Of a DNA stretch of 24,000 nucleotides, positions 2,370 to 21,860 are shown one piece after another; position 1 is the stretch's first letter, and the number at the start of each line of letters is the position of its first letter. The translations under genes and the position numbers were made by a program. The notes beneath the pieces were generated by a model. It did not search any database and was not told the origin of the DNA. It worked only from the letters and a program-made list of their open reading frames with translations. Origin of the DNA: an uncultured Thermococci archaeon (lineage in GTDB: Archaea; Methanobacteriota_B; Thermococci; Thermococcales; Thermococcaceae); assembly GCA_964615185.1 (NCBI GenBank), contig CAZTOS010000005.1, positions 9,749 through 33,748 on the forward strand, read 5' to 3'.

Positions 2370-2696
2370 ATGATGAGTGAGAGTATGAACGTGGAAAGGA
2401 TTATTAAGCGCATCATTTTGGAGGAATTTTCAAAACATGGGATTGATGTAGAGGAGGTTATTCTGTTCGGGTCAAGAGCGAGAGGAGATTTTAGAGAGGA
2501 TTCTGATTGGGATATTCTTGTGGTGGTTACTCAAGATATTGACCGGGACACTTATAGAGAGCTCTGGTACAGCGTCTATAAGCGAATTGATTTTCCTGTT
2601 GACCTGATAATCGTTCCAAAAAAGATATTGGAGAAATACAAGAATTCCACAGGCTTTATCTACCACTATGCGCTGAAAGAGGGGATACAGATATGA
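2370..2696 (+). CDS. Minimal nucleotidyltransferase (MNT) domain protein, antitoxin-like partner of HEPN
   Basis: It carries the pol-beta-type NTase signature GSRARGDFREDSDWDILVV (GS...D.D). It is 108 aa and overlaps the downstream HEPN gene by 4 nt (ATGA). Confidence 0.85.
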   Translation: MMSESMNVERIIKRIILEEFSKHGIDVEEVILFGSRARGDFREDSDWDILVVVTQDIDRDTYRELWYSVYKRIDFPVDLIIVPKKILEKYKNSTGFIYHYALKEGIQI

Positions 2697-3073
2697 GGGA
2701 TGACGTGAAGGCATGGGTACAAAAGGCTGAGGATGACCTTATGACTGCTAAGGCTCTTTTAGAGTTCAAAAAGCCCGTTCCTTGGATAATCTGCTTCCAT
2801 GCCCAGCAAGCTGTGGAGAAATTTCTCAAAGCGTTTTTGGTTTACAACAATGTTCCGATTCCAAAAGTCCATGACATAAAGCAACTGATCCTTATGTGCT
2901 CAAGGATTGACACTGAATTCAAAGAACTGTTGAAGATTGGGATTGACAGACTTACAGAGTATGCTGTAGAAGCGAGGTATCCAATACTTTTTGAACCGAC
3001 ACTCAAGGAAGCAAGAGAAGCCGTTGAGCTTGCAGAGAAGGCGAGAAATTTTGTTTTGAAGAAGCTTAAATGA
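2693..3073 (+). CDS. HEPN domain protein (COG2250/PF05168-like), toxin-like partner of MNT
   Basis: It shows the helical HEPN pattern: AEDDLMTAKALL, FHAQQAVEKFLKAFL, KVHDIKQL and EARYP. It is 126 aa and translationally coupled to the MNT gene. Confidence 0.85.
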   Translation: MRDDVKAWVQKAEDDLMTAKALLEFKKPVPWIICFHAQQAVEKFLKAFLVYNNVPIPKVHDIKQLILMCSRIDTEFKELLKIGIDRLTEYAVEARYPILFEPTLKEAREAVELAEKARNFVLKKLK

Positions 3074-3331: not shown

Positions 3332-3432
3332 AGTTCTCTTTTTCTCATTTAAAACCGGTAGGGATGAGGGACGTTAGCCTCCCAGTAAGTTTCCCCAGTA
3401 GTGGAGAAAGGGACAGAAGTCAGAAAGGTTTC

Positions 3433-3520
3433 TGGTGCGGGGGCGGGGATTTGAACCCCGGAACCCCTACGGGACGGGACCCTCAATCCCGCGCCTTTGA
3501 CCAGGCTCGGCAACCCCCGC
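3433..3520 (-). tRNA. tRNA-Leu (anticodon GAG), class II with long variable arm, CCA encoded
   Basis: The reverse complement is GCGGGGGTTGCCGAGCCTGGTCAAAGGCGCGGGATTGAGGGTCCCGTCCCGTAGGGGTTCCGGGGTTCAAATCCCCGCCCCCGCACCA. It has a 7-bp acceptor stem, anticodon stem CGGGA/TCCCG with loop TTGAGGG, and the T-loop TTCAAAT. Confidence 0.95.
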
Positions 3521-3550
3521 TCAAGCCAAAATATTTCGGTTAAAATCAGC

Positions 3551-3557
3551 TTATAAA
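3551..3557 (-). promoter_or_regulatory. TATA box for tRNA-Leu
   Basis: The minus strand reads TTTATAA, with its proximal edge about 30 nt upstream of the mature tRNA 5' end at 3520. Confidence 0.55.
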
Positions 3558-3583
3558 GTTTTCTGTTTGCTATTACCGAAAAA

Positions 3584-3591
3584 TTTATAAA
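3584..3591 (+). promoter_or_regulatory. TATA box for tRNA-Lys
   Basis: TTTATAAA ends 29 nt upstream of the tRNA 5' end at 3620. It mirrors the tRNA-Leu promoter within the same 99-bp spacer. Confidence 0.55.
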
Positions 3592-3619
3592 ACTCTCAAC
3601 TCCCAATGATTTTGGACGC

Positions 3620-3697
3620 GGGCCGGTAGCTTAGCCTGGTTAGAGCGGCGGACTCTTAATCCGCAGGTCGGGGGTTCAAATCCCCCCCGGCCCGCCA
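3620..3697 (+). tRNA. tRNA-Lys (anticodon CUU), CCA encoded
   Basis: The sequence is GGGCCGGTAGCTTAGCCTGGTTAGAGCGGCGGACTCTTAATCCGCAGGTCGGGGGTTCAAATCCCCCCCGGCCCGCCA. The acceptor stem is GGGCCGG/CCGGCCC, and the anticodon stem GCGGA/TCCGC carries the loop CTCTTAA. Confidence 0.95.
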
Positions 3698-3739
3698 ACA
3701 AGCTGCACTTCTTCTGGAGTGCTTTTCGGAGAGAAGAAA

Positions 3740-6019: not shown

Positions 6020-6239
6020 CTTGGAAATTGTTATGTGTTGAGGATTTAAAAAGTTCCGAGTTTCCTTATTTTCACTTGCTTTGAAAAACTCATTGCATAT
6101 ATTGATGATTGTTGAAGAAATCAGCTAAGAGCTTTTTAGAGGGATGCATGATTAAAATTGAAATTAAACACATTGAGAGGTCATGGAGGTATAGCTCCTG
6201 ATAGAGAAGAAGAAGCGAGGTGTGGAGCGAACTTTCGTT

Positions 6240-6317
<78 letters not shown>

Positions 6318-6342
6318 TCGGGAACTAATCACCGGAAAGGTG

Positions 6343-9284: not shown

Positions 9285-9611
9285 TTGTTCATTGATCCCT
9301 TTGTAATTCGCTCCATTAACCGGAGTGAACTCCGGAAACGGATTCTATTGTATCTTTACGAGATATATCCCTCTCCCACCTATCTTGCTGAAATTGCACG
9401 AGTTGTCCGTTCGGATCCTTCAAATGTTAAAGGGGCTCTAGTAGGGCTTGGGAATAGATATAACGGACACAGTTCTCTCGTAAGCTTAGGGTTAGTTGAA
9501 ATAATAGAAGAAAATGGATTCAAATACTATCGACTCTCAGAATACGGAAAAAGAGTTGTCGAGCTTCTTAAATCATATCGTAGCTATTATAGCAAAATTT
9601 ATGTGAGGTGA
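9285..9611 (+). CDS. Small winged-helix DNA-binding protein upstream of the archaellum operon (candidate EarA-like regulator)
   Basis: It is 108 aa with a TTG start; GGAGGG lies 8 nt upstream. The helix-rich core RKRILLYLYEIYPSPTYLAEIARVVRSDPSNVKGAL, followed by the beta-hairpin-like LVEIIEENGFKYYRLSEYG, is typical of a wHTH. The stop overlaps the next gene. Confidence 0.6.
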   Translation: MFIDPFVIRSINRSELRKRILLYLYEIYPSPTYLAEIARVVRSDPSNVKGALVGLGNRYNGHSSLVSLGLVEIIEENGFKYYRLSEYGKRVVELLKSYRSYYSKIYVR

Positions 9612-9616
9612 AAGGA

Positions 9617-10576
9617 ATGAATTCCTTAGTTAAAAAAATAGATGAAAACATTTCAGCCATGATCCAAATATCTATGCTCAACTTAATCAAACTTGGATTA
9701 AAATATGGAATTTTTAACAAACTAACAATAAAACGCCACTATGCCGATATTTTAGGCTCAAGTCCAATTAGAAATAAGCCTTTATTAAAAAGCCTCCTAG
9801 ATACATATGTTGAAGTGGGAATATTAGAAAAAGGCATTAATGAAATAAAAATGAAAAACTTTTCTTACACAATGACTCTCAATAGAGGGAGTGTTCAACA
9901 TATGCTTCCCAGTTGGGTTCCAATTTTTGAGGAAATATACAAAATGGTGGATTACGCGTTTATAAGTCCAGAGCATCCGAAAATTTTAATGGATTTTGAT
10001 AAAGATGCAGATTTTTGGGATATGAGGCTCTCTCTGGAATTTAACAGTAATTATAGGAAATTGATAGTATCCATAGGAAAGCTAAAAGATGAAATGAGAG
10101 TTTTGGATCTAGGATGCGGGTCTGTCTCACCGATTGAGATAGGGAAATTTTTAGGTCCTAATGGGGAATATGTGGGTGTTGATTTCTCACCAGGTATTAT
10201 GAGCATTGCTAAACAAAGAATTCAAAATTTGGGCTTTGACTGGGTTACCTTAAAAGAAATAGACATAAGAGTAATAAAACCTAAAACTAAGTATGATGTA
10301 GTTATTATGAGTTTTATTCTGGAATATATAGATAACATTCAAAAGGTTATGAAAAATGCAATGGAAGCATTAGAAGAAAAGGGGAAGTTGATAATTGTAG
10401 AGCCTTTTAGGGAAAATTATCCAAACATCGAAGCTTGGGAATTTTTTGAAAGATTGACAAGGGAATTTGTAGAATTTCCTAAAAAATCATCTATAATAGA
10501 GAGCCTTGAGGATGATGGATACACGTATAGGATACAGGAAGTTGGAAAGTCTATTTTGATGATTGAGAAGCTGTAG
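9617..10576 (+). CDS. Class I SAM-dependent methyltransferase with an N-terminal helical (O-methyltransferase dimerisation/wHTH-like) domain
   Basis: Motif I is VLDLGCGSVSPIE, post-I is GVDFSPGIM, and motif II/III is DVVIMSFILEYI. I prefer ATG 9617 because GAGGTGA lies 5 nt upstream. The track's GTG 9608 overlaps the wHTH stop. Confidence 0.8.
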   Translation: MNSLVKKIDENISAMIQISMLNLIKLGLKYGIFNKLTIKRHYADILGSSPIRNKPLLKSLLDTYVEVGILEKGINEIKMKNFSYTMTLNRGSVQHMLPSWVPIFEEIYKMVDYAFISPEHPKILMDFDKDADFWDMRLSLEFNSNYRKLIVSIGKLKDEMRVLDLGCGSVSPIEIGKFLGPNGEYVGVDFSPGIMSIAKQRIQNLGFDWVTLKEIDIRVIKPKTKYDVVIMSFILEYIDNIQKVMKNAMEALEEKGKLIIVEPFRENYPNIEAWEFFERLTREFVEFPKKSSIIESLEDDGYTYRIQEVGKSILMIEKL

Positions 10577-10622
10577 TTCTTTTCAATTTTTTACAAATTT
10601 TTGCTTATTACTCAATTTTTTG
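10577..10622 (+). terminator. T-rich tract after the methyltransferase gene
   Basis: The sequence is ttcttttcaattttttacaaatttttgcttattactcaatttttt, which contains several T5-T6 runs directly after the stop codon. Confidence 0.45.
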
Positions 10623-10627
10623 GTAAA

Positions 10628-10661
10628 TATCTACATATGTAGATACATTCCCATATACATA
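10628..10661 (+). promoter_or_regulatory. TACATA hexamer cluster including an 18-bp perfect palindrome (candidate activator/operator site of the fla promoter)
   Basis: The palindrome TATCTACATATGTAGATA spans 10628-10645. TACATA occurs at 10632-10637 and 10656-10661, its complement TATGTA at 10636-10641, and the near-copy TACATT at 10644-10649. The cluster ends 20 nt upstream of the TATA box. Confidence 0.55.
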
Positions 10662-10670
10662 GGCAAAAAC

Positions 10671-10690
10671 AAAAAATTGCTTTATATTCA
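10671..10690 (+). promoter_or_regulatory. BRE/TATA promoter of the archaellin genes
   Basis: An A-rich BRE-like stretch, AAAAAATTGC, precedes TTTATATT (10681-10688). The RBS GGAGGTG lies at 10724-10730 and the ATG at 10739. Confidence 0.6.
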
Positions 10691-10738
10691 AAAGTACTTA
10701 TTACTTATTGCAGAATCTCCAATGGAGGTGCTCTTGGC

Positions 10739-11410
10739 ATGGGACATTTTATAAAGAAGAGGAGAGGTGCCGTTGGTATTGGCACCTTGATTGTGTTTAT
10801 AGCTATGGTTTTAGTGGCGGCAGTGGCGGCAGCAGTTCTTATTAATACGAGCGGTTACTTGCAGCAAAGAGCAGAATCTACAGGAAGGCAAACAACAAAG
10901 GAAGTAGCAACAGGATTACAAATCGACAAAGTAGTAGGGCATGTAGACCAAAACAATGGTAAGATTGATTTAATGGCATTTTATATTTCAGTTCAAGCAG
11001 GTGGAGAAGCGATAGACCTCAACCAAACAAAGATTTATTTAAGTGATGGGCAGAACGTTGTTGTTCTCCAATATGGGTATAATGGTTCAAACAACTTGTA
11101 TTACGACAGCCCATTAAGCAATGGATTGTTTGACACAAGTCTAGGTGTTTGGAAAAACCTAACATCAACAACCTTTGGTATTATAGTGGTTCAGGATGTC
11201 GATAATTCAGTTAGAGCCGATTATCCAAGCATTAACTCTGGAGATATAGTCATTTTAACAGCAAATGTCAGCGCAATCTTTGGCAATAATGGAATTTCAC
11301 CAAGAACTACAGTTACGGTTGAAGTTAGACCAGAGTTTGGAGGTCCAGGATTTACAGCATTTACAACACCACCAAGCTATGGACAGGCAGAGGTTATCGA
11401 GTTAAAGTGA
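10739..11410 (+). CDS. flaB: Archaellin (FlaB/ArlB), short paralog, 223 aa
   Basis: It has a class III (type IV pilin-like) signal peptide, [10 protein letters not shown]|[39 protein letters not shown]. It ends in the conserved C-terminus [18 protein letters not shown] and contains 4 N-x-S/T sequons. Confidence 0.95.
10766..10938 (+). repeat. 173-nt segment identical to 11433-11605 (archaellin 5' regions), copy 1
   Basis: I compared the two copies base by base and found no mismatches. The segment covers the codons from GAVGIG to DKVVG. Confidence 0.95.
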
Positions 11411-11420
11411 GGTGAGAAAA

Positions 11421-12440
11421 ATGAAGAAGCGTGGTGCCGTTGGTATTGGCACCTTGATTGTGTTTATAGCTATGGTTTTAGTGGCGGCAGTGGCGGCAGC
11501 AGTTCTTATTAATACGAGCGGTTACTTGCAGCAAAGAGCAGAATCTACAGGAAGGCAAACAACAAAGGAAGTAGCAACAGGATTACAAATCGACAAAGTA
11601 GTAGGACGCATCTCAGGAAACAAGATTGATAAAATGGGAATATACATTTCACTCCAAGCTGGTGGTGAGCCAATAGATCTGAGTCAGACGAAATTAGTGT
11701 TGAATGATCAAAAGAAGCTTGCTATATTAGAATACAAGGACTTTACAAGAGTAAAAATTTCAACGGATATGGATGGAAAAATATTCAATGCAACACTTGT
11801 AGGCACCCATCAAAATGTAACTTATGATACCTCTGCTGGTGATACAATTAGCTTAACCGTAAGCGGAACATTAAAGCAAGATTCAAATGGTAACTACGTT
11901 GGTACTCTAACAGTAACTGGTGGAAGCCTTAAAACAACTTCAGTCACCAATGCTAACTTTACAATCTCAAGTGGATACCTAAAGGTTACAGGAAACAGCT
12001 CCAATAACCTCATAATTACCTCAGGATACCTTGAAACAGATACGGGTAAAACATTGCCTGTAAAGAGCGCTAATCTTACAGGTAGTGGATTATCTCTAAG
12101 TGGTAGTGAAGTAGAGCTTTCAAGTCAAACATTAAACAATGGAACCATAACAATTGCATCCATTTGGAATGTTTTGGACAATGACAATACCCACTTTGGA
12201 TTAATAATTGTTCAGGATGTTGATGGATCACTAAGCGGTGATGTTCCAACAATAACTGCGGGAGATATAGCAATTATTGTAGTTGACACTAAAGCGGTCT
12301 TCTCAAATACCGACGGAATACCAACAAGAACAACAGTAAGTGTTGAAGTTAAGCCAGAATTCGGTGCTTCAGGATTTACAGCGTTTACAACACCACCAAG
12401 CTATGGAATTGGCAACAACCAGGTCATAGAGCTTAAGTAA
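11421..12440 (+). CDS. flaB: Archaellin (FlaB/ArlB), long paralog, 339 aa with expanded central domain
   Basis: Its signal peptide is MKKRG|[18 protein letters not shown]. The N-terminal 60 or so residues are identical to the first archaellin. The C-terminus is [19 protein letters not shown] prefer ATG 11421 with GAGGTGA upstream over the track's GTG 11412. Confidence 0.95.
11433..11605 (+). repeat. 173-nt segment identical to 10766-10938, copy 2
   Basis: Same hand comparison as for copy 1. Confidence 0.95.
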
Positions 12441-12468
12441 TCTCTTTTATTTTCATTTTTTCTCTTTT
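12441..12468 (+). terminator. T-rich tract between the archaellin genes and flaC (partial terminator/attenuator candidate)
   Basis: The sequence tctcttttattttcattttttctctttt starts immediately after the stop of the second archaellin. The flaC RBS AGAGGTGG follows it. Confidence 0.5.
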
Positions 12469-12482
12469 AAGAGGTGGCAGAG

Positions 12483-12965
12483 ATGTCATTCAAGTACTTA
12501 AAAGACAAATTCAAGAGGAGCAAGGAAAAGCAGGAGGATGTTGAAGAAGTTGTCATAGATGTTGAAGAAGTATCTCAAGAAGGTGAGGATAAGAGTGAAC
12601 TTGAAGAAAAATTAAATTCCATAATGTCCAGAATTTCTGAGATAGAAAATGACATTCCCAGGATAAAGATGGGCATAGACACTTTGAAAAGCCAAATACA
12701 GGAGATAAGGGGAGAAATTGACAGCTTGAATAAAACAATAAAAGACGTTATGATGCTCTACGAGGTAGTTTCAGAGGAGATAAATCCATTTAGAGACACA
12801 AGCAGGAACAATCCAATACTAAGTGAAATTCAGGACATCAAAAAAGCGATAGAGGATTTAAAAGCAGAAATCGCACAAATAAAAGCAGATCTAAGACTTT
12901 TATCCAGTCATGGAATGGACGTGGAGTCTGTGATATATGAAGTGCTCTCGGAGGGTTTTGAATGA
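12483..12965 (+). CDS. flaC: Archaellum accessory protein FlaC (ArlC), coiled-coil
   Basis: It holds the operon position directly after the archaellins. It has an acidic N-terminus followed by a long heptad-like region (LEEKLNSIMSRISEIENDIPRIKMGIDTLKSQIQEIRGEIDSLNKTIKDV). It overlaps flaD by 4 nt (ATGA). Confidence 0.75.
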   Translation: MSFKYLKDKFKRSKEKQEDVEEVVIDVEEVSQEGEDKSELEEKLNSIMSRISEIENDIPRIKMGIDTLKSQIQEIRGEIDSLNKTIKDVMMLYEVVSEEINPFRDTSRNNPILSEIQDIKKAIEDLKAEIAQIKADLRLLSSHGMDVESVIYEVLSEGFE

Positions 12966-13795
12966 TAACCGAGCTGGAGATAGATAATAAACTTAAAAAA
13001 CTTCAAGGGAAAGTACCTACAGTTCTAATAAATGATCTAAGAGAAAAACTAATTGCCAAAATGGACCTTCTTGAACCAGAACAAGTTGATAAGATAATTG
13101 AAAAGGTCATGGAAAAATATGCTTCACAAGTTGACAGACTAATAAAGCTGGATAAGAGAATTGAAGAAATTAGAAAACATCTCGAAGAACTTTCTAAGAA
13201 CCTTACTCAGGAAAAAAAGGAACAACAAAGTGAAAATCAAGTCACTCAAGAAGACGCAAAAGCTACAGAGAGAATCTCTAACGAATATTTACGTGCACCC
13301 GAAATCCGTTTAGATGGAGAGTATGGGGGAGATAGTGTTAATGAAAGTTTAAGGGAGGAAACACCTATGGAGGAGCAACTTAATATACCAAAAGATATTG
13401 GTTTGATGCTATTCGATAGATCATCAAGGAAGTATAGGTTGGAAAAGCTTCCTGATGATATGATTTCAACTATGATTGCACTGAAGTGGCTTGGTTTCTT
13501 AATGGAGAGAGTAGGTGTCCAAAATCTCGAGAATGTTTTGGAATACTACTACGAACTTGGGTGGATATCCGAGGAAGTTCTCAATGATCTGTTGAAGTAT
13601 GCAAAAGGAACAAAGCCTCATTATAGAGAGCCTGATTGGAAACCAGCTGATAAATTAACAATTCAAGATCATGTGATATCACTCCTATTTATTGAAAGAC
13701 TTAGGGGCACAAGAGTTAGTAGAGAAGTCCTAGACATGCTTGAGAGGGAGATGAAGCTAATAACAAAGGCAATCGAGGAATTCTATGGAGTGTAG
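12962..13795 (+). CDS. flaD: Archaellum accessory protein FlaD/E family (ArlD)
   Basis: It has an N-terminal coiled coil, an acidic low-complexity linker, and a C-terminal conserved FlaD/E-type domain (MISTMIALKWLGFLMERVGVQNLENVLEYYYELGWISEEVLNDLLKY). Confidence 0.8.
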   Translation: MITELEIDNKLKKLQGKVPTVLINDLREKLIAKMDLLEPEQVDKIIEKVMEKYASQVDRLIKLDKRIEEIRKHLEELSKNLTQEKKEQQSENQVTQEDAKATERISNEYLRAPEIRLDGEYGGDSVNESLREETPMEEQLNIPKDIGLMLFDRSSRKYRLEKLPDDMISTMIALKWLGFLMERVGVQNLENVLEYYYELGWISEEVLNDLLKYAKGTKPHYREPDWKPADKLTIQDHVISLLFIERLRGTRVSREVLDMLEREMKLITKAIEEFYGV

Positions 13796-13804
13796 GGGAT
13801 CGCA

Positions 13805-14311
13805 ATGGGTTTTAGCGTTTCAGTAGCTTTCAGTATAATAGTGATCTCTGCTTTACTTATGATCTCTCTACTTTATACTTCTTTTGAAAACACATACATT
13901 GAGATCAGTAAGGCAAAAGAAGTGCATGAAAATGCAAAAATTAACTTGCTCAACCAACGCCTTGATGTTAACTGGACTTACCGAGAAGGAACTAGTGATT
14001 ATAGCATGTATTTCAATGTAACCAACAACGGCATTACTTTAAGACCCCAGTATTGGAACATACTTTATGATGGGAGCATAAACTCAAATCATGTTTCCTT
14101 AGAATCACGCGAATACCTACTTCCCGGAGAGACCATTGAACTAAATGTGACCAATATTCCAAAAATCAACGAAATTCATTCCATAGTAATTACAACGGAA
14201 TATGGATGTTCGTTAAAGATTAAGTGGGAGTGGGTGTGGATTGATCAGAACCAGACAGTTGGAGAGGTTAATGTTCTCAGTGAAGCCTGGTACTGTACAT
14301 TGGAGGGATAA
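13805..14311 (+). CDS. flaF: FlaF (ArlF), membrane-anchored beta-rich archaellum protein
   Basis: It has an N-terminal archaellin-like hydrophobic helix (FSVSVAFSIIVISALLMISLLY) followed by a soluble beta-rich domain. Its size (168 aa) and operon position match FlaF. Confidence 0.75.
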   Translation: MGFSVSVAFSIIVISALLMISLLYTSFENTYIEISKAKEVHENAKINLLNQRLDVNWTYREGTSDYSMYFNVTNNGITLRPQYWNILYDGSINSNHVSLESREYLLPGETIELNVTNIPKINEIHSIVITTEYGCSLKIKWEWVWIDQNQTVGEVNVLSEAWYCTLEG

Positions 14312-14313
14312 AA

Positions 14314-14784
14314 TTGGGAAGTGGAGTCATTTCAGAGCTTATACTCTTCATAGCAGCAATATTAGTTGCGGGCATGGTATCTGGGGCATTATACGTAACT
14401 ACTCAAAACATTGCAGGAGAAATAGAGAACAAAGGACTCACTTTTGCACGGGATTTAAAAATAGACTTTGCTATAATCAATGATCCCGAAAACATACCTC
14501 TGGTTGATAACAACACATATTATGTTTTTTATATTAAAAACACTGGAAAAGAGAGCTTTTTGTTTAGCTCGAATAATGTTGTCGTGCTTATTGATGGTGA
14601 GATAGTTGACTCATCTAATCTCGTATTTGATAACTTAAGTAACCCAGGTCTTGAAGTTTTAAACCCTTATGAGATTGGAGAGCTTCGCGTTAATGCTACT
14701 GTTGTGGATACTTCAGTTCAATATCACAAAATCACGATTATAGTAGAAAATGGAAAGAAAAGAAGCTTAGTATTTAAAGTTTAA
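14314..14784 (+). CDS. flaG: FlaG (ArlG), membrane-anchored archaellum protein
   Basis: It has a TTG start with GGAGGG 6 nt upstream. Its N-terminal helix is SELILFIAAILVAGMVSGALYV. Its size (156 aa) and its position after flaF match FlaG. Confidence 0.75.
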   Translation: MGSGVISELILFIAAILVAGMVSGALYVTTQNIAGEIENKGLTFARDLKIDFAIINDPENIPLVDNNTYYVFYIKNTGKESFLFSSNNVVVLIDGEIVDSSNLVFDNLSNPGLEVLNPYEIGELRVNATVVDTSVQYHKITIIVENGKKRSLVFKV

Positions 14785-14795
14785 AGGTGTTAGAA

Positions 14796-15491
14796 ATGGG
14801 AGAGTTGTTAAGTATAGCAATAAAAAACGATGAGCTTCATAGGAGATTAGGCGGAGGTATTCCAGCCGGAAGTATAGTGTTAATAGAGGGAGATAGAGGG
14901 AGTGGAAAATCTGTATTTTCTCAAAGACTTCTCTATGGATTCCTGTCCAATGGTCACTCTGTTTCTTATTTATCAAGCCAATACACAACTGTCGAGTTTA
15001 TAAATCAAATGTATTCCTTGGGTTATGAAATTATACCTTTTCTTATAAGAAGAAAGCTCTTATTTGTGTCATTCTATCCGCTTTTATCGACTCTTTCTAG
15101 TGAAGAGAAGTTTTTAAGCAGACTTATTAATGAGCCGAGAGTATGGGAACCTGATGTTATAATAATAGACTCCATAACTCCCATAATTGGGAAAAAGGTT
15201 AGCGATTCTGCGTTAAGAATGTTCACTGAACATGTGAAAAAAATGAGTTCATTAGGAAAGGTTACTACGCTAACAGTCAACGAAAAAGAAATGGACGAAG
15301 ACCTTCTTTTAAAACTTGAAGAAATATCTACTCTGCTTATAAGACTTCAAGTTAAGGTATTTGGTGGAGATCTAAAAAATTCTGCTATGATTATAAAATA
15401 TAACAACGCTAAGGGCTTATTCCAGAGAATAATACCATTTAGAGTAGAACCGAGAGTAGGGTTCATAGTAGAGATAGCAACGGTGGTGTGA
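14796..15491 (+). CDS. flaH: FlaH (ArlH), RecA/KaiC-like ATP-binding protein
   Basis: It contains LGGGIPAGSIVLIEGDRGSGKS (Walker A) and the Walker B-like DVIIIDS. I prefer ATG 14796 because AAAGGTG lies 6 nt upstream; the track uses GTG 14787. Confidence 0.87.
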   Translation: MGELLSIAIKNDELHRRLGGGIPAGSIVLIEGDRGSGKSVFSQRLLYGFLSNGHSVSYLSSQYTTVEFINQMYSLGYEIIPFLIRRKLLFVSFYPLLSTLSSEEKFLSRLINEPRVWEPDVIIIDSITPIIGKKVSDSALRMFTEHVKKMSSLGKVTTLTVNEKEMDEDLLLKLEEISTLLIRLQVKVFGGDLKNSAMIIKYNNAKGLFQRIIPFRVEPRVGFIVEIATVV

Positions 15492-15492
15492 G

Positions 15493-17118
15493 ATGGCTGA
15501 GTTTAATGATACCTTAGAAGCAGCAATATACAGAAACCCACATCTTAGAAAATACATTAATAATTTCACCAAAAAATATGGAAAACTTCCAAACTTCCAC
15601 GTGAGCCTAAGTAGAGATATGAAAGATATCAAGTATCCAAATATTATCTATCCTATAGGTGACCCCATATTTATCCATATATATGGTGATCCGAGGACTG
15701 AGAAAAGGTATATTGTTATAGAACCGAGAATAGAGACAAAGGAAGAAGAAAAGAAGTATGAGCTTATAAAAGACAAGATATTAGAGATGGCTCCATTAAG
15801 AGAAATTCCGGAAGATCCTGAGGAATTTGAAGCTTTATTAGATGAGCTATTCAACATTGCTGTTGAAAAATTAGTTTCTGGTGGAGGCTTTATAAGAAGG
15901 AGGAAAATTTCATTCACAAAACAGGAACTCGACAAATTCCGCTATCTAATAAAAAGAGATGTCATTGGTGTAGGACCCCTAGAACCTTTAGTAAGAGATC
16001 CATACATAGAAGATATCCACGTTTTAGGTGCTCACCATATATCTTTAGTTCACAAGATTTTTGACGCATTACCAACCAATATTGCCTTTGAGAACGAGAT
16101 AAAATTAGCAGACTACTTTAAAAGCCTAAGCGAACGTATAGGTAGACCGGTCAGTGATAAAAACCCAATAGTAGATGGTACATTGCCAGATGGATCGCGT
16201 ATAAACATCATTTATAGCCCAGATGTTAGTTTAAAGGGACCAACAGCCACAATTCGTAAGTTCTCCGCAACTCCATTAAGCGTAGTACAGCTTGTAAACT
16301 GGAATACTTTTTCTGCTGAAATTGCAGCATACTTATGGATTGCTTTGGAGTATGGTATGAGTATTTTTGTTTGTGGAGAAACTGCAAGTGGAAAAACAAC
16401 GACATTAAACTCTATAATACCATTTATCAAGCCCTCCTCAAAAATATATACTGCCGAAGATACTCCCGAGGTTGTTGTTCCACATCCCAACTGGCAACGT
16501 TTAGTTACAAGAGAAAGAGGACCAGAGGAAAGCAGAGTGACTCTTTTCGACTTGTTAAAGGCGGCTTTGAGATCAAGACCTAATTATATTATAGTTGGTG
16601 AGATTAGAGGTGTAGAAGGTGCTGTGGCATTTCAAGCAATGCAAACTGGACACCCAGTTCTAAGTACTTTCCACGCAGGAGATATAAAGAAGATGATACA
16701 AAGATTTACAGGGAGCCCAATTAACGTCCCTGTTACATTCATAGATAACTTAAATATTGCTATTTTCCAACAGGCTGTTTATGTAAGAGGAAAGTTCCTT
16801 AGAAGAGTTGTCAATGTTGTTGAAATTGAAGGATACTATGAAGAGATTGGTGGAGTCGCTACAAGGGACGTATTTGAGTGGGACCCAGTAAGTGATAGAC
16901 ACATCTTTAGAGGTATGAACAATTCGTATATTTTAGAAAGGAAAATAGCAGAGGTCGCAGGTTACGATGACCCCAAGGATATATACAATGAATTATTCTT
17001 AAGAGCTAGAATAATCAAGAGAATGAGTGAATTGGGAATTACAAGCTACTGGGATGTTTATCGTGAGATAAAGAACTTTTATGAGAAGGGGATTGAGGGA
17101 TTAAGCTTTAGGATATGA
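15493..17118 (+). CDS. flaI: FlaI (ArlI), archaellum assembly/motor ATPase (type II/IV secretion ATPase superfamily)
   Basis: It has Walker A GETASGKTT, the Asp/Walker B region PNYIIVGEIRG and His box STFHAG. It is 541 aa and starts 1 nt after the flaH stop. Confidence 0.96.
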   Translation: MAEFNDTLEAAIYRNPHLRKYINNFTKKYGKLPNFHVSLSRDMKDIKYPNIIYPIGDPIFIHIYGDPRTEKRYIVIEPRIETKEEEKKYELIKDKILEMAPLREIPEDPEEFEALLDELFNIAVEKLVSGGGFIRRRKISFTKQELDKFRYLIKRDVIGVGPLEPLVRDPYIEDIHVLGAHHISLVHKIFDALPTNIAFENEIKLADYFKSLSERIGRPVSDKNPIVDGTLPDGSRINIIYSPDVSLKGPTATIRKFSATPLSVVQLVNWNTFSAEIAAYLWIALEYGMSIFVCGETASGKTTTLNSIIPFIKPSSKIYTAEDTPEVVVPHPNWQRLVTRERGPEESRVTLFDLLKAALRSRPNYIIVGEIRGVEGAVAFQAMQTGHPVLSTFHAGDIKKMIQRFTGSPINVPVTFIDNLNIAIFQQAVYVRGKFLRRVVNVVEIEGYYEEIGGVATRDVFEWDPVSDRHIFRGMNNSYILERKIAEVAGYDDPKDIYNELFLRARIIKRMSELGITSYWDVYREIKNFYEKGIEGLSFRI

Positions 17119-17127
17119 GGTGAGCTT

Positions 17128-18834
17128 ATGGCAAGCAGTAATACCAGTGCTTTCACAAAAGCAGACCTTGATGTGAGGACATATTTAAGGAAGGTTATAT
17201 TGCCCAATGCATCACTTGCAATGTTGATGTTCGTTCTAACATCAATCTTTCTTAGAATGTACACTCTCCCTTCATGGGCAAAAGTTAGTGTTTATGCTAT
17301 CTCCACCCTTCCACTTATTTATGCTGTTCTCTATCCCTACGTAAGAGTTAGTTCCAAAAAAGTTCAAATTAATTCAAAAATACCCTACTTTGCCACTTAT
17401 TTCGCTGTACTATCAACAAGTGATGTAAGCAGAACAGAACTTATATGGAACATTGCGTCCGAAGAAACTCTTGAACCTATAGCAGGAGAGATGAGGAAAA
17501 TTTACGTTCTTATAGCAAAGTTCAATTGCGGATTGCCAACTGCTCTCCGTTTCTTATCAAAGAGAAGTCCAAGCAAAGTTTTTGCAGATTTCCTCGATAG
17601 ACTAGCTTATTCTCTTGATAGTGGTGTAGAGCTTAAAGAGTACCTCCTGCGGGAGCAACAAACAGTTATGGACGATTATGAGACATTTTATGAAGGAGCT
17701 CTTTATGACCTTGATATATTTAAGGAAATATACTCCTCACTCATTATTGCAGTAGTTTTCATGGTTGCATTCATTATTATAGGTCCCATAATCACTGGAC
17801 AGAGTATAGAGATCTTAACAATCTTTGCTTTGATTTTGGTGTTAGCTACTGAAATTGGTGTTCTGTTGGTGATAAAATATAGGATGCCTGAAGACAAAAT
17901 ATGGGCTAAAAATGCAATGAATAATGGAAGAAAGAGAAAAGTGTTAAGGGCATTGTTGATTTCTATAATTGGGACTATCTTTACATCAGTTGTTTATATA
18001 TTTGTTGTGAGACCAAGATTCAACTTTCCAGAATTCTTTTCTTTAGCTGTAATCTTAACGCCTTTAGCCTATTTTGGGAGAGTATTAAACAAGGAAGAAG
18101 CCAACATAACTATTAAAGATGAAAACTTCCCTGCATTTATAAGAAGCTTAAGCACTTCTTTAGCATCAAGTGGGAGTTCTGTAACATTAGTTCTTAAGTA
18201 TCTAAGCTCTCATGACTTTGGAACCCTTACAACGGATATACGAAACCTATATCGTAGGTTAGCTGTTAGAGTGAATGATACAAGAGCATGGGATTATTTT
18301 ATCTCAGATACTGGAAGTTGGTTGATTAGCATGTTTTCAGAAATATTCAGGAAGAGCATAAGATTAGGTGCTGATCCGGAATACGTTGGATTGATTATCT
18401 CGAGAAATTTTGAAAGGCTTATAAGACTTAGAAGAAAGAGAGTGCAAAGTGTATCGAGCTTTAAGGGTGTTATCTTTGGAGTAACGGGAGCATTTGCATT
18501 TTCATTAGCAGCGTCTTTTCAAGTTGTTCTATATATAAATAAAGTATTCTCAAACATACAGACTCAAGGAGGATTCGTAACAAATATACTCTTCATACCC
18601 TCTGAAACAAGCCTTACCCTTACTAATTACATGATACTTTTGATGATCTTAATCCACTCCTTTGTATCTGCTATTGCAATAAAGTTTTCAGATGGAGGAC
18701 ATCTTGGAGCAGCGATTTACTATTTTGTAATGCTAACATGGGTGTCTGCAATTGGAGTATTCTTGGGGAACTATATAATGACCAAGATGATACATGTAGG
18801 TGGGCTTATCTTTCCACTCATATGGGGGGGTTAG
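17128..18834 (+). CDS. flaJ: FlaJ (ArlJ), polytopic membrane platform protein
   Basis: It is 568 aa with multiple hydrophobic helices separated by two cytoplasmic helical domains (T2SS-F-like duplication). GAGGTGA lies upstream, and it sits directly after flaI. Confidence 0.9.
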   Translation: MASSNTSAFTKADLDVRTYLRKVILPNASLAMLMFVLTSIFLRMYTLPSWAKVSVYAISTLPLIYAVLYPYVRVSSKKVQINSKIPYFATYFAVLSTSDVSRTELIWNIASEETLEPIAGEMRKIYVLIAKFNCGLPTALRFLSKRSPSKVFADFLDRLAYSLDSGVELKEYLLREQQTVMDDYETFYEGALYDLDIFKEIYSSLIIAVVFMVAFIIIGPIITGQSIEILTIFALILVLATEIGVLLVIKYRMPEDKIWAKNAMNNGRKRKVLRALLISIIGTIFTSVVYIFVVRPRFNFPEFFSLAVILTPLAYFGRVLNKEEANITIKDENFPAFIRSLSTSLASSGSSVTLVLKYLSSHDFGTLTTDIRNLYRRLAVRVNDTRAWDYFISDTGSWLISMFSEIFRKSIRLGADPEYVGLIISRNFERLIRLRRKRVQSVSSFKGVIFGVTGAFAFSLAASFQVVLYINKVFSNIQTQGGFVTNILFIPSETSLTLTNYMILLMILIHSFVSAIAIKFSDGGHLGAAIYYFVMLTWVSAIGVFLGNYIMTKMIHVGGLIFPLIWGG

Positions 18835-18835
18835 C

Positions 18836-20779
18836 ATGAGAAAGATTTGGATAATATTTGTTTTAATCTTGATATCACAAGGAGTGTATGCGGAATCGGA
18901 GATATCAGGATGGATATTAGTCCCAAGTGTTGTTAAAGTAGGAAGTTATTCAATAGAAGCTAAGGACATTTCAGTTACTGATTGGGATGTGCTCACAATA
19001 ATTAGAGGCCCTAAATTGTATAAGGAGTACCTAATTTCAGTTGGGAGTGAGGTTCAGGCAGACAGGTTTTATATAACATATAAAAATGTGATAGCGGGAG
19101 AACAGATATATGCTCTAACTAAAATAAAATTTCCATATCTTCTTGAGGGTCAGTCAATAAGTATTAACGGATATCAAATATTGCTTCGCTCTGTCAGCAA
19201 AGATAAAGTCCTTCTCAGGATATACAACGAAAAAGAGAGTAAAGACTTGACAGTGAGGAAGGGTTCAACCGAAAAGTTTGGAAATCTTAGGATCTCTGCA
19301 ATACCCGAACCTACAATTTTTGATGGCTTTCTTGCCAAAAACAAAACATACATAATTGGAGATTGGAAAATAAGATTTCTCACATATAAGATAACAGAGA
19401 ACAATGGCAACATAACAGAAGAAGCTGAGATTGAGATAAATAATGTACGTTTTAAAGTTACAAAAAATCAGACTGTAACTTTTAGAGATGGATATTTAGT
19501 AGTTGACGATCTTATAGGCGAGGAGTATATAAAGGCTCGCTTAATAATTAAGGGAGCATATTTGAACATAAAAGTATTTCCAGATTATCAATTTTCTTTG
19601 AAGGAAGGCAAGATAGCGAGAGTAGGGCCGTATTTGATTAAAGTTGAAAAAATATTTGGGGACAGTGTTTATTTATCGTTGCTTAACCCATGTGGAAAAG
19701 TCATTAAAAGTGATGTCCTTTCCCTGAAAAATGTTGGGGCAAGTTTATATTACAATGGCTTAACTCTTGGGATTTTAAATATTACTAAAGAAACCAGTGT
19801 AGAGATGGTGGCATTTTTAGATGATAAACGAATTCCAAAGATAGAAGAGTATGCATTGCTGAATGTTACTTTTTTAGTTCCAGAGAATGTTAATCAATAT
19901 CAGCAGTTTGGTGGGTATATCGAGTTAAAGAATGAAGGAAAAGTTGATCTAAAGTTTCTCCAGATAATACCCTCTATCCCGCAGGAATTTGAAATCGTGG
20001 ATAAATATACAAGCTTTGTTGAAGAACTTAAAGTTGGAAAAAGCGTGAAAATACCCATAAGGCTAAAAGCGCTAAAAGAAGGTTCTCTCTATGCAGGCCA
20101 GGTAAAAGTAATCGCTTATGCTCCATTTGAGCTTGCTTGCAATGGTTTTCAAAAGCTTGAGTTTACATCTAACAAAGCTTGGATTAAGGTTGAGGGATAC
20201 AAGCCAAAGTATGCTGTTATAATTAAAGCCCAAGATGGTGAAGTAGGAGAAAGAATAAAGGTCAATGTTACTGTTAAAAACTTTTCAAACTTTGAAGCTC
20301 CTTTCATGCTAAGAATTGCAGTACCAAGAGAGTTTGGTATTTACAGTGAAGATTTTATGAGTGTAAATAAGAATTGGTTATATATCAATGAAACTTTGCC
20401 TGTAAATGGTACAAAGACTTACAAGTTTGTTATTTTTCCAAATAAGCCAGGAAAGTTCACAATCGAAGGTTCTTTAAGCTCAATGGGTATGTTCTTCCAA
20501 AACAGTACAATCTTTACAGTATATAGCAAAAAGCCTGCTAATTCACAATCTAATTCACAATTAAAGCCACTCTTAAATACCACAAATAACACAACCTGTG
20601 AGCCCCAAATAATAGAGAAAACAGAAACCATCAAGGTACCACAAATCGTTGAGCAAAATGTTACCTTTGTTCCACTAAAGTCAAAGGTTTTATTTGGAGG
20701 GACAGGATTTATCGGAGGTGTTACATTCATACTTTTATTAGCATACATAGCGGCAAAGCTTGAAGAAAGGAAGAAATAG
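18836..20779 (+). CDS. Uncharacterised 647-aa surface-anchored protein with many N-glycosylation sequons, encoded as the last gene of the archaellum operon
   Basis: Its ATG lies 1 nt after the flaJ TAG. It has a signal peptide (MRKIWIIFVLILISQGVYA|ESE), a beta-rich body, and two CARDB/DUF11-like segments (GGYIELKNEGKVDLKFLQI..., ERIKVNVTVKNFSNFEAPFMLRI...). An S/N/T-rich stalk follows, then a C-terminal TM helix (LFGGTGFIGGVTFILLLAYIAA) with a KLEERKK tail. It contains at least 13 N-x-S/T sequons. Confidence 0.85.
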   Translation: MRKIWIIFVLILISQGVYAESEISGWILVPSVVKVGSYSIEAKDISVTDWDVLTIIRGPKLYKEYLISVGSEVQADRFYITYKNVIAGEQIYALTKIKFPYLLEGQSISINGYQILLRSVSKDKVLLRIYNEKESKDLTVRKGSTEKFGNLRISAIPEPTIFDGFLAKNKTYIIGDWKIRFLTYKITENNGNITEEAEIEINNVRFKVTKNQTVTFRDGYLVVDDLIGEEYIKARLIIKGAYLNIKVFPDYQFSLKEGKIARVGPYLIKVEKIFGDSVYLSLLNPCGKVIKSDVLSLKNVGASLYYNGLTLGILNITKETSVEMVAFLDDKRIPKIEEYALLNVTFLVPENVNQYQQFGGYIELKNEGKVDLKFLQIIPSIPQEFEIVDKYTSFVEELKVGKSVKIPIRLKALKEGSLYAGQVKVIAYAPFELACNGFQKLEFTSNKAWIKVEGYKPKYAVIIKAQDGEVGERIKVNVTVKNFSNFEAPFMLRIAVPREFGIYSEDFMSVNKNWLYINETLPVNGTKTYKFVIFPNKPGKFTIEGSLSSMGMFFQNSTIFTVYSKKPANSQSNSQLKPLLNTTNNTTCEPQIIEKTETIKVPQIVEQNVTFVPLKSKVLFGGTGFIGGVTFILLLAYIAAKLEERKK

Positions 20780-20816
20780 AATTAATGAAAAGACAAAAAA
20801 GTTAAAAAGTTCCCTT

Positions 20817-20860
20817 CATAATAATTCCATTGAAAAGCTTCTAAAAGGGGAATTATTATG
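20817..20860 (+). promoter_or_regulatory. 12-bp perfect inverted repeat CATAATAATTCC-N20-GGAATTATTATG whose 3' arm covers the start codon of the CheF-like gene
   Basis: The arms span 20817-20828 and 20849-20860. The ATG is at 20858-20860, and the G-rich RBS-like AAGGGG is partly inside the arm. Confidence 0.35.
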
Positions 20861-21859: not shown

Positions 21860-21860
21860 A

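What the first reader, a model, noticed from the sequence alone, without database searches (positions are those of the whole stretch)
10628..10661. TACATA hexamer cluster and 18-bp perfect palindrome just upstream of the archaellin BRE/TATA
A 34-nt stretch ends 20 nt upstream of the TATA box (TTTATATT, 10681-10688). It holds two direct TACATA copies, one inverted copy and one near-copy (TACATT). The first pair is embedded in the perfect palindrome TATCTACATATGTAGATA. As I recall the literature (this needs verification), the Methanococcus maripaludis archaellum activator EarA binds TACATA hexamers located just upstream of the fla-promoter BRE. If that is right, the same hexamer here, next to a small wHTH gene (9285-9611), suggests an EarA-type activation circuit conserved into this lineage. 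Here, however, the sites are arranged as a dyad, which is more typical of a dimeric operator.
Basis: partly seen in the sequence, partly recalled or inferred. Interest (0 to 1): 0.62.

Follow-up and report, generated by a model that had tools for sequence, protein, structure and literature searches.

The report
EarA binding sites before archaellin promoter
The hexamer cluster and palindrome are the docking sites for EarA, the known switch protein for the archaeal swimming filament genes; this system was already described in related heat-loving archaea, so the finding is correct but largely ordinary.

Summary
TATCTACATATGTAGATA (10628-10645) is a perfect 18-bp palindrome. TACATA lies at 10632 and 10656 on +, at 10636-10641 on -, and TACATT at 10644, just upstream of an A-rich BRE and TTTATATT (10681-10688).

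The 108-aa ORF (9285-9611) is a clear EarA family protein (Pfam PF07381, E 6.6e-34). The gene order earA, methyltransferase (fam), arlB0 is that of Pyrococcus furiosus.

I anchored 59 Thermococcales arlB0 promoters on the TATA box:
- TACA lies at -51 in 55, at -39 in 49 and at -27 in 32, an exact 12-bp phase.
- TGTA lies at -45 in 40.

In this genome the phased array is unique to this promoter.

EarA and a TACA motif upstream of a weak BRE were published for Methanococcus maripaludis (2016/17) and for Thermococcales (Stöckl et al. 2023). This scan also met the same system before on other DNA. So this is a new member of a known kind.

One modest addition: the dyad core TACATATGTA is as conserved as the hexamers, and the papers I could read do not mention it. 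This hints at dimeric EarA binding.

Side finding: the 3' half of fam, this promoter, the arl cluster and che genes form a ~21.6-kb island resembling another genus.

Binding, activation and the transcription start were not tested.

The parts
9285..9611 (+). earA: 108-aa winged-helix activator (TTG start)
   Evidence: Pfam EarA PF07381, E 6.6e-34. It is 66-88% identical to Thermococcales EarA proteins. The AF2 model has a wHTH topology, pLDDT 65. It is the only copy in the genome.
9608..10576 (+). fam: SAM-dependent methyltransferase that accompanies earA. Its 3' half, from about 10100, belongs to the exchanged island.
   Evidence: Pfam Methyltransf_31, _12 and _25. The review PMC10117864 says earA is always adjacent to a methyltransferase gene. 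The identity switch is seen.
10580..10622 (+). T-tracts (T6 at 10587-10592, T5 at 10598-10602, T6 at 10616-10621): likely oligo-T terminator of the earA-fam transcript
   Evidence: Read from the sequence. The role of archaeal oligo-T termination is inferred from PMC10665913. Not tested here.
10628..10645 (.). 18-bp perfect palindrome TATCTACATATGTAGATA. Its 10-bp core TACATATGTA (10632-10641) is the conserved dyad at -51..-42 from TATA.
   Evidence: A palindrome on this centre is at least 10 bp in 35/59 species and at least 16 bp in 15/59. T-45 and G-44 are each kept in 53/59.
10632..10637 (+). EarA site 1 (TACATA), TACA at -51
   Evidence: TACA at -51 in 55/59 promoters.
10636..10641 (-). Inverted TACATA (TGTA at -45 on +)
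   Evidence: TGTA at -45 in 40/59 promoters.
10644..10649 (+). EarA site 2 (TACATT), TACA at -39
   Evidence: TACA at -39 in 49/59 promoters.
10656..10661 (+). EarA site 3 (TACATA), TACA at -27, 9 nt before CAAAAAA
   Evidence: TACA at -27 in 32/59 promoters. It is absent from the same-genus species L002-L005. It matches the published position about 9 nt upstream of the BRE.
10664..10679 (+). A-rich weak BRE region AAAAACAAAAAATTG (A6 at 10671-10676)
   Evidence: A at -9 to -7 in 59/59 and C at -13 in 55/59. The weak A-run BRE model comes from PMC5512572 and PMC10665913.
10681..10688 (+). TATA box TTTATATT
   Evidence: TATA was the anchor of the alignment, so its invariance is partly by construction. 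The flanking T at -1 is kept in 57/59.
10710..10712 (+). Predicted transcription start, giving a 5' UTR of about 28-30 nt
   Evidence: Inferred from the TATA centre plus 26/27 nt (PMC5512572) and the 30-nt arlB0 5' UTR of P. furiosus.
10724..10730 (+). Ribosome-binding site GGAGGTG
   Evidence: Read from the sequence. It is conserved in the orthologous leaders.
10739..11410 (+). arlB0, the first archaellin (class III signal peptide ...KKRRG|AVGIG)
   Evidence: Pfam Arch_flagellin, E 1.4e-42. It is 91% identical to Palaeococcus pacificus PAP_04440.
11412..20779 (+). [quoted passage not shown]
   Evidence: Pfam FlaC_arch, Arch_fla_DE, Arch_flagellin, KaiC-type ATPase, T2SSE and T2SSF.

Best explanation
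The stretch 10628-10661 is the upstream activating element of the arlB0 (archaellum operon) promoter.

The proposed mechanism is as follows. EarA, encoded 1 kb upstream at 9285-9611, recognises TACA(T/C)-centred sites placed every 12 bp, at -51, -39 and -27 from the TATA box. The most distal site is doubled into a dyad, TACAT|ATGTA. From this array, which ends about 9 nt before a weak A-run BRE, EarA helps recruit TFB (with TBP and RNA polymerase). Transcription then starts near 10710 and runs into arlB0 and the arl cluster.

What is shown here:
- the EarA family identity of the protein;
- the synteny earA-fam-arlB0;
- the fixed position and strong conservation of the sites, the dyad core and the A-run BRE in 59 species;
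- the uniqueness of the array in this genome.

What is taken from the literature: EarA binds TACATA, is required for fla transcription in M. maripaludis, and its level controls archaellation in P. furiosus.

What is inferred: EarA binds these particular sites, the dyad is occupied by an EarA dimer, the TFB-recruitment step, and the start site.
For: Protein and gene order:
- Pfam EarA, E 6.6e-34.
- EarA orthologues were found in 21/24 family genomes sampled, and fam in 79/99 genomes of the order.
- earA-fam-arlB0 is the order reported for P. furiosus.

Conservation of the sites:
- TACA lies at -51 in 55/59 promoters, -39 in 49/59 and -27 in 32/59. TGTA lies at -45 in 40/59.
- Information content is 1.1-1.9 bits per position over ACCTACATATGTA (-54..-42). 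Interspersed positions (-40, -34 to -32, -20, -5) are below 0.3 bits, so unconstrained positions have diverged freely.
- The A-run at -9..-7 is kept in 59/59.

Uniqueness in this genome:
- The phased triple and TACAnnTGTAnnTACA each occur only here.
- A weight matrix built without this locus scores it 25.4 bits. The next hits score 17.4 bits or less, and the three checked lie in coding DNA.

Protein features:
- The region containing the predicted recognition helix, SDPSNVxGAL, is invariant or nearly so.
- Foldseek's best, weak matches are ArsR/SmtB, HlyU and MarR proteins. I know these as dimeric wHTH regulators from general knowledge, which fits a dyad.

Literature: PMC5512572, PMC10665913 and PMC6396743.
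Against: - No binding, transcription or start-site data exist for this organism.
- The AF2 model has only moderate confidence (pLDDT 65). All fold matches have E of 1e-3 or worse and TM 0.4-0.55, so the dimer inference is weak.
- The two bases before each TACA here (TC, GA, TA) depart from the published A(C/G)(C/G)TACA(T/C) motif.
- The proximal TACA at -27 is missing in the closest species by genome (L002-L005), so not every site is required.
- Beyond the 10-12 bp core the palindrome is not conserved. The pair -53/-40 is complementary in only 16/59.
- The site arrangement in the experimentally defined M. maripaludis promoter could not be retrieved for comparison.
Confidence: 0.85

Rival explanations
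1. EarA binds only as monomers, or head-to-tail, to the direct TACA repeats at a 12-bp period. The palindrome is then a by-product of packing site 1 next to the 5' flank of site 2 and has no function of its own.
For: - The direct 12-bp phasing is the most conserved feature.
- About a third of species lack the TGTA. Examples are ccTACAtatgcaccTACAcaaccaccTACA in the high-GC Thermococcus promoters and L014, L019 and L020.
- An 18-bp perfect palindrome arises in 12% of simulated windows.
- The published model uses single 6- to 9-nt sites.
Against: - T-45 and G-44 are each kept in 53/59 species (IC 1.4-1.46 bits). The equivalent positions after sites 2 and 3 have IC of 0.45 bits or less.
- T-45 and G-44 stay conserved even where -43 is C (TATGCA).
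- The palindrome reaches 16-30 bp in 15 species of several genera.
Confidence: 0.3
2. The dyad is the operator of a second, unidentified dimeric regulator that overlaps the EarA sites and modulates archaellum expression, for example in response to surface contact, nutrients or temperature.
For: - The published work does not explain which signals control EarA-dependent expression.
- The dyad core is better conserved than the proximal EarA site.
- The published motif search on one strand reported one site for P. horikoshii. Its promoter (L052) carries a 16-bp palindrome plus a further TACA.
Against: - The dyad is made of two copies of the EarA hexamer itself.
- No other regulator gene is linked to the locus.
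- The position, about 64-80 nt upstream of the predicted start, is typical of archaeal activators rather than repressors (PMC5512572).
Confidence: 0.1
3. The palindrome acts in RNA. It would be a hairpin at the 3' end of the earA-fam transcript (a terminator or stabiliser), or a hairpin in a read-through transcript.
For: - The RNA fold predicts a 7-bp hairpin on the palindrome. The 164-nt intergenic RNA folds better than shuffles (z -2.46).
- An earA-fam-arlB0 co-transcript was reported in P. furiosus.
Against: - The sequence itself (TACA) is conserved, rather than pairing with varying sequence.
- The arms are not kept complementary beyond 10-12 bp across species.
- The stem is AT-rich and is not followed by a T-run. 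The T-tracts lie upstream of it.
- A 7-bp AU-rich hairpin is unlikely to be stable at the growth temperatures of Thermococcales (inference).
Confidence: 0.03

Closest known systems
EarA and the arlB0 promoter motif of Pyrococcus furiosus and other Thermococcales (Stöckl et al. 2023, PMC10665913)
   Same: - Same protein family and same gene order, earA-fam-arlB0.
- TACA-centred motif repeated one to three times adjacently, ending about 9 nt upstream of a weak A-run BRE.
- Similar TATA-to-ATG distance.
- With three direct sites, the window corresponds to the paper's three-site (T. kodakarensis) pattern.
   Different: - The two bases 5' of each TACA here are TC, GA and TA, not C/G C/G.
- The paper does not mention the inverted copy or palindrome ('palindrom' occurs 0 times).
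- My 59-species alignment shows TACATATGTA at -51..-42 as the best-conserved block.
- Here the promoter lies on a horizontally exchanged segment while earA is resident.
EarA (MMP1718) and the fla promoter of Methanococcus maripaludis (Ding et al. 2016; PMC5512572)
   Same: - The 6-bp TACATA consensus occurs in several copies immediately upstream of the BRE.
- The BRE is a weak run of adenines, and the activator is a small wHTH protein.
- earA is next to a methyltransferase gene.
   Different: - In M. maripaludis earA is not next to the fla operon (PMC10117864).
- There are four sites there, against three direct plus one inverted here.
- I could not obtain the spacing and orientation of the M. 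maripaludis sites, so phasing and dyad cannot be compared.
TFB-RF1 (PF1088) of P. furiosus and Ptr2 of Methanocaldococcus jannaschii
   Same: These archaeal activators bind just upstream of BRE/TATA and compensate for a weak BRE or TATA by recruiting TFB or TBP (PMC5512572, PMC10665913).
   Different: They belong to unrelated protein families with different site sequences. The likeness is in mechanism only, and the mechanism is inferred for EarA.
ArsR/SmtB, HlyU and MarR-type dimeric winged-helix regulators
   Same: Small wHTH proteins with flanking helices. They are the best, though weak, structural matches to the EarA model. From general knowledge, they bind inverted repeats as dimers.
   Different: No significant sequence match to any solved structure. 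They are mostly repressors, and no ligand or metal site is evident in EarA. The fold matches are weak (E of 1e-3 or worse).
ArnR/ArnR1 boxes of the Sulfolobus acidocaldarius flaB promoter
   Same: Inverted-repeat boxes upstream of the archaellin promoter are needed for activation (PMC6396743).
   Different: The regulators are non-homologous and membrane-bound, in a different phylum, with a different motif.

Membership tests
EarA-dependent archaellum promoter system (Euryarchaeota) | The regulator belongs to the EarA protein family (Pfam PF07381, formerly DUF1495) | tested here: met
   116 bits against a cut-off of 22, E 6.6e-34, covering 89 of the model's 90 positions. Orthologues carry the same Pfam domain. 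The NCBIfam library held here gave no hit.
EarA-dependent archaellum promoter system (Euryarchaeota) | Winged helix-turn-helix fold | tested here: inconclusive
   The AF2 topology is H-H-H-H-beta hairpin-H, typical of a wHTH, but mean pLDDT is only 65. The Foldseek hits are all wHTH regulators but weak.
EarA-dependent archaellum promoter system (Euryarchaeota) | earA lies adjacent to a predicted methyltransferase gene | tested here: met
   The ORF at 9608-10576 overlaps the earA stop and matches SAM-methyltransferase families. The rule is stated in PMC10117864.
EarA-dependent archaellum promoter system (Euryarchaeota) | Several TACATA-type hexamers immediately upstream of the BRE of the first archaellin gene | tested here: met
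   Three exact TACATA and one TACATT lie within 10632-10661, ending 9 nt before CAAAAAA. Their positions are conserved in 59 species.
EarA-dependent archaellum promoter system (Euryarchaeota) | Weak, adenine-run BRE | tested here: met
   AAAAACAAAAAATTG precedes TTTATATT. The A-run is invariant in 59/59. That it is functionally weak is inferred from PMC5512572.
EarA-dependent archaellum promoter system (Euryarchaeota) | Thermococcales motif A(C/G)(C/G)TACA(T/C) at a fixed distance from the BRE | tested here: inconclusive
   A at -3 and TACA(T) are present at all three direct sites at the fixed positions. The two S positions read TC, GA and TA here, against CC in 49/59 species at site 1.
EarA-dependent archaellum promoter system (Euryarchaeota) | EarA binds the sites specifically and is required for arl transcription | not testable with these tools
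   Needs EMSA or footprinting, in vitro transcription or genetics. RNA data could not be consulted.
Dimeric palindrome-binding wHTH operators (ArsR/MarR-like) | A dyad-symmetric site conserved as a dyad | tested here: met
   The 10-bp core is conserved in 35/59 species on the same centre, plus two Pyrococcus-like promoters one unit upstream. T-45 and G-44 are each kept in 53/59. The outer arms are not conserved.
Dimeric palindrome-binding wHTH operators (ArsR/MarR-like) | The protein is a homodimer | not testable with these tools
   Only monomer prediction is available. This needs SEC-MALS, a crystal structure or multimer modelling.

The most novel reading that the evidence does not exclude
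EarA may not read isolated 6-bp hexamers. It may instead read a compound operator that is ancestral to Thermococcales.

This operator would consist of a symmetric dimer site, ACCTACAT|ATGTAGGT-like, centred 46.5 bp upstream of TATA. That site would nucleate a 12-bp-phased array of further TACA sites running towards the weak BRE. In-phase positions are -63, -51, -39, -27 and possibly the conserved AACA at -15.

If so, the published single-strand motif model undercounts sites. For example, one site was reported for P. horikoshii, where a 16-bp palindrome is present. EarA would then be a case of cooperative, dyad-nucleated activator assembly in archaea.
Probability: 0.4. Interest if true: 0.45.

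Novelty: new member of a known kind. Interest (0 to 1): 0.27.

Why it matters
The finding confirms that the EarA circuit can be predicted from sequence alone in an unnamed Thermococcaceae genome, and that its regulon here is probably a single promoter.

The 59-species alignment gives positions precise enough for a mutational test: -51, -45, -39 and -27 for the sites, and T-45/G-44 as the bases specific to the dyad. It points to an unaddressed question of how EarA is arranged on DNA, as a dimer on a dyad or as a tandem array. That question bears on how archaeal activators recruit TFB.

The locus is also a natural promoter swap. A resident earA sits in front of an arl promoter and cluster that resemble another genus. 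This fits the near-invariance of both the EarA region that contains the predicted recognition helix and the DNA core.

Tried and rejected
1. Retrieving the M. maripaludis fla promoter to compare site spacing and orientation failed.
- The two genome-contig scans found nothing. One used primer P1-For from PMC5512572. The other used a wobble-degenerate pattern for [12 protein letters not shown].
- Ding et al. 2016 and 2017 (Microbiology) are not held.
- The archaellin homologue search listed only Thermococcales and one Ferroglobus protein in its top 120.
- M. jannaschii appears only as an unnamed control without a handle.

3. A solved structure of an EarA relative by sequence: none. The best match had E 0.46 and is unrelated.

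4. Secondary EarA targets in this genome: none found.
- Strict patterns and a weight matrix built from other species found no second promoter-like site. The three next-best hits checked lie in coding DNA.
- No motif lies upstream of earA itself.

5. The sigma-70 promoter and terminator scan is not applicable to archaea and gave nothing useful.

6. Covariation in the outer palindrome arms: only one compensated change was found. It is T-53/A-40, shared by the window and L008 and therefore a single event. I rejected it as strong evidence.

7. The idea that the 18-bp perfect length is itself significant was rejected. It arises in 12% of simulations, and length varies from 0 to 30 bp among species.

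Full report
**1. What is in the sequence**

The stretch 10628-10661 reads TATCTACATATGTAGATACATTCCCATATACATA.
- TATCTACATATGTAGATA (10628-10645) is a perfect 18-bp palindrome. It is the only perfect palindrome of 16 bp or more in the window.
- TACATA occurs on + at 10632 and 10656, and on - at 10636-10641. TACATT lies at 10644.

Downstream follow GGCAAAAACAAAAAATTGC, TTTATATT (10681-10688), the ribosome-binding site GGAGGTG (10724-10730) and the ATG of an archaellin at 10739. Upstream, between the stop of the preceding gene (10576) and the palindrome, lie three oligo-T tracts (10587-10592, 10598-10602, 10616-10621).

**2. Is it more than chance?**

TACATA is not enriched in the window as a whole (10 found, 11.4 expected). 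In 2000 first-order Markov simulations of a 24-kb window:
- three or more copies within 34 nt arose twice;
- a 12-bp-phased TACA triple arose four times;
- a perfect palindrome of 18 bp or more arose 241 times.

So the cluster and the phasing are unusual. The palindrome length alone is not. The genome holds 18 perfect palindromes of 18 bp or more in 2.26 Mb.

**3. The genes around it**
- The 108-aa ORF at 9285-9611 is an EarA family protein (Pfam PF07381, 116 bits, E 6.6e-34).
- It overlaps a SAM-dependent methyltransferase gene (9608-10576).
- Then come two archaellin genes, followed by arlC, arlD/E, arlF, arlG, arlH, arlI and arlJ, a 659-aa protein, a cheF-like gene and an MCP gene.

This is the Arl1-type cluster with earA and fam in front of arlB0, as described for Pyrococcus furiosus (PMC10665913; PMC10117864). 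The genome has one earA, one fam and one arl cluster. Homologues are 66-88% identical Thermococcales proteins. Some are already named 'archaellum operon transcriptional activator EarA family protein'.

**4. The literature**

- EarA of Methanococcus maripaludis binds a 6-bp consensus, TACATA. [quoted passage not shown]
- Removing the sites or the gene abolishes fla transcription.
- A 3-adenine deletion in the 7-adenine BRE bypasses EarA. This suggests that EarA recruits TFB to a weak BRE (PMC5512572; PMC6396743).

For Thermococcales, Stöckl et al. 2023 (PMC10665913) reported three things:
- The EarA level controls archaellation in P. furiosus.
- MEME finds the motif A(C/G)(C/G)TACA(T/C) nine nucleotides upstream of a weak A-run BRE.
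- The motif occurs in one to three adjacent copies in front of the first arl gene only.

That paper does not mention a palindrome. Two further full-text searches found no archaeal paper on TACATATGTA or on an inverted repeat at EarA sites.

**5. Conservation test**

I located fam in 79 of 99 genomes of the order and EarA in 21 of 24 sampled genomes of the family. I then fetched the DNA downstream of fam and extracted the region upstream of the first archaellin gene.

59 species could be anchored on the A-run plus TATA box, an anchor independent of the hexamers. Relative to the first T of TATA (window 10683), the results are as follows:

| Element | Position | Species |
|---|---|---|
| TACA | -51 | 55/59 |
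| TACA | -39 | 49/59 |
| TACA | -27 | 32/59 |
| TACA | -63 | 9/59 (8 in the Pyrococcus-like genus) |
| TGTA | -45 | 40/59 |
| TGTA | -57 | 11/59 |

The window has all of -51, -45, -39 and -27.

Per-column information shows one dominant block, ACCTACATATGTA at -54..-42, with 1.1-1.9 bits per position. Then come two variable bases, TACAY at -39..-35, a weaker TACA at -27..-24, the block AACAAAAAA (-15..-7, with the last three A in 59/59), and TATA. Interspersed positions (-40, -34 to -32, -20, -5) carry less than 0.3 bits. These promoters have therefore diverged freely wherever they are not constrained.

**6. The dyad**

T-45 and G-44 complete TACAT|ATGTA and are each kept in 53/59 species. The equivalent positions after the second and third TACA carry 0.45 bits or less.

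The palindrome on the centre -47/-46 is at least 10 bp in 35/59 species, at least 12 bp in 25, at least 16 bp in 15, and reaches 22-30 bp in three. Two Pyrococcus-like promoters carry it one 12-bp unit further upstream. So the dyad core is a family-wide, selected feature, not a peculiarity of this window.

The outer arms are not conserved. The dinucleotide at -41/-40 is mostly CC (repeating the flank of site 1) or GG (mirroring it). This explains the (C/G)(C/G) of the published motif.

The window's TATC...GATA arms differ from the TACC...GGTA of the same-genus species by a compensated pair. That pair is shared with one other genome (L008), so it counts as a single event.

The distal part can equally be read as TACA half-sites of alternating orientation every 6 bp: TACA-ta-TGTA-nn-TACA. 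In one genus this continues for five half-sites. Sequence alone cannot say which pair a dimer would use.

**7. Specificity within the genome**

In the 95.6%-complete assembly, the phased triple and TACAnnTGTAnnTACA each occur only at this promoter.

A 22-column weight matrix, built from the other species with this locus and its near-twin excluded, scores this site 25.4 bits. The next hits score 17.4 bits or less, and the three I checked lie inside long coding frames. No site precedes earA itself. The predicted EarA regulon here is therefore this one promoter.

**8. The protein**

Across 26 orthologues the segment YLxEIARxxxSDPSNVxGAL and the wing are invariant or nearly so. This parallels the invariance of the DNA core.
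- No solved structure matches by sequence.
- An AlphaFold2 model has the wHTH topology (four helices, a beta hairpin, a C-terminal helix) but only moderate confidence (pLDDT 65).
- Its best Foldseek matches are ArsR/SmtB, HlyU, QsrR and MepR/MarR. All are weak (E of 1e-3 or worse, TM 0.4-0.55).

From general knowledge, these families are dimeric and bind inverted repeats. I take this only as a hint that EarA could bind the dyad as a dimer.

**9. Mechanism proposed**

EarA binds the phased array, with the dyad at -54..-39 plus sites at -39 and -27. From there it helps TFB onto the weak A-run BRE. Transcription starts about 26-27 nt downstream of the TATA centre, near 10710. This gives a 5' UTR of about 28-30 nt, as mapped for P. 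furiosus arlB0. The oligo-T tracts at 10587-10621 probably terminate most earA-fam transcripts before the element.

Homology, synteny, position and conservation are shown here. Binding, activation, oligomeric state and the start site are inferred.

Rivals:
- Direct-repeat-only binding with a functionless palindrome. The conservation of -45/-44 weakens this.
- A second regulator on the dyad. This cannot be excluded.
- An RNA hairpin. The fold is predicted, but what is conserved is the sequence rather than the pairing, and the hairpin would be AU-rich in a hyperthermophile.

**10. What could not be done**
- The M. maripaludis promoter could not be fetched. Whether the experimentally defined sites share the 12-bp phase and the dyad remains open.

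**11. Earlier notes of this scan**

The same architecture was met before on other DNA. One follow-up on a Pyrococcus window reached the same verdict: real, but described in 2023. Other first-reader notes report TACATATGTA or TGCATATGCA palindromes and 12-bp-spaced hexamers in front of archaellin promoters in other genomes. I did not test those.

**12. Side finding**

The window is a mosaic.
- Up to about 10100 (inside fam) it is 91-98% identical to a same-genus genome (G002) and 57-78% identical to G010, a genome of another genus.
- From about 10100 onward it is about 90-97% identical to G010 overall (81-99% in 100-nt steps over the first 700 nt). It is 55-84% identical to G002, or absent from it.
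- The G010-like segment continues to about C5:41485. There the contig returns to 91% identity and synteny with the same G002 contig.

So a block of about 21.6 kb appears to have been exchanged between genera. It comprises the 3' half of fam, the EarA-site promoter, the whole arl cluster, cheF, an MCP gene and more. The two junctions lie within one contig and the flanks are syntenic.

ArlB0 is 91% identical to Palaeococcus pacificus PAP_04440, but the next listed archaellins, including named Thermococcus ones, are only 57-63% identical. earA itself is of the resident type. Its DNA-reading region differs from the G010 protein at only two positions, R42K and H61Y. An assembly chimera is less likely but is not excluded without reads.

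**13. Verdict**

The system is a further member of a published kind. The conserved dyad is a modest, testable refinement.

Noticed in passing
window 10100-24000, continuing to G000 contig C5 position ~41485 (locus L091:1-7734): A block of about 21.6 kb is about 90-97% identical overall to G010, a genome of another genus. It is only 55-84% identical to the same-genus genome G002, or absent from it. The block holds the 3' half of fam, the arlB0 promoter, the arl cluster, cheF, an MCP gene and more. Both flanks are 91-98% identical to G002 and syntenic with its contig C18. This suggests inter-genus exchange of a motility island with a junction inside fam. An assembly chimera is not excluded.
   Followed up: partly
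L065 and L069 (genomes G064 and G050), downstream of fam: In some Thermococcus species fam is followed not by arlB0 but by a CheY-like gene (MARVLIVDDALFARILLRK...). That gene is preceded by TGTAgcTACAcaattaccTACAca. EarA-type phased sites may therefore also control chemotaxis genes there.
   Followed up: no
The published one-strand motif search reported a single site for P. horikoshii.
   Followed up: partly
window 10669-10672, position -15..-12 in the 59-species alignment: AACA inside the A-rich BRE region, with C at -13 in 55/59 species, lies exactly in phase with the TACA sites (-63, -51, -39, -27, -15). It could be a degenerate fifth site overlapping the BRE, or simply a feature of the BRE.
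   Followed up: no
window 10584-10622 and 10669-10693: The T-rich region upstream of the sites is partly complementary to the A-rich BRE region (CAATTTTTT / AAAAAATTG, 9/9). ACAAATTTTTGCTTATTACTCAA (10593-10615) resembles the BRE/TATA core ACAAAAAATTGCTTTATATTCAA (74%). This may be an effect of composition or a relic duplicate of the promoter core. Conservation in other species was not formally tested.
   Followed up: no
G000 contigs C7:24297-24318, C30:11979-11996, C6:34731-34746, C7:23452-23467: Several long perfect palindromes share the core TGCATATGCA (for example ATTTTGTGCATATGCACAAAAT). They may be operators of another regulator. Earlier scan notes report TGCATATGCA in front of archaellin promoters in other genomes.
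   Followed up: no
window ~3420-3700 and ~6233-6319: Short intergenic repeats have dozens of copies (75-100% identity) in both G002 and G010. They look like a dispersed small repeat family of these genomes.
   Followed up: no
window 2370-3073: An adjacent nucleotidyltransferase (Polbeta / NTP_transf_2) and HEPN gene pair looks like a typical MNT-HEPN toxin-antitoxin-like module.
   Followed up: no
window 9596-9611: The EarA C-terminus reads ...SKIYVR*, where the two nearest relatives compared (G002 and G010) have ...SKFM*. An extra A in an A-run would explain this. It shifts the last codons and moves the stop into the start region of fam. Probably harmless.
   Followed up: no
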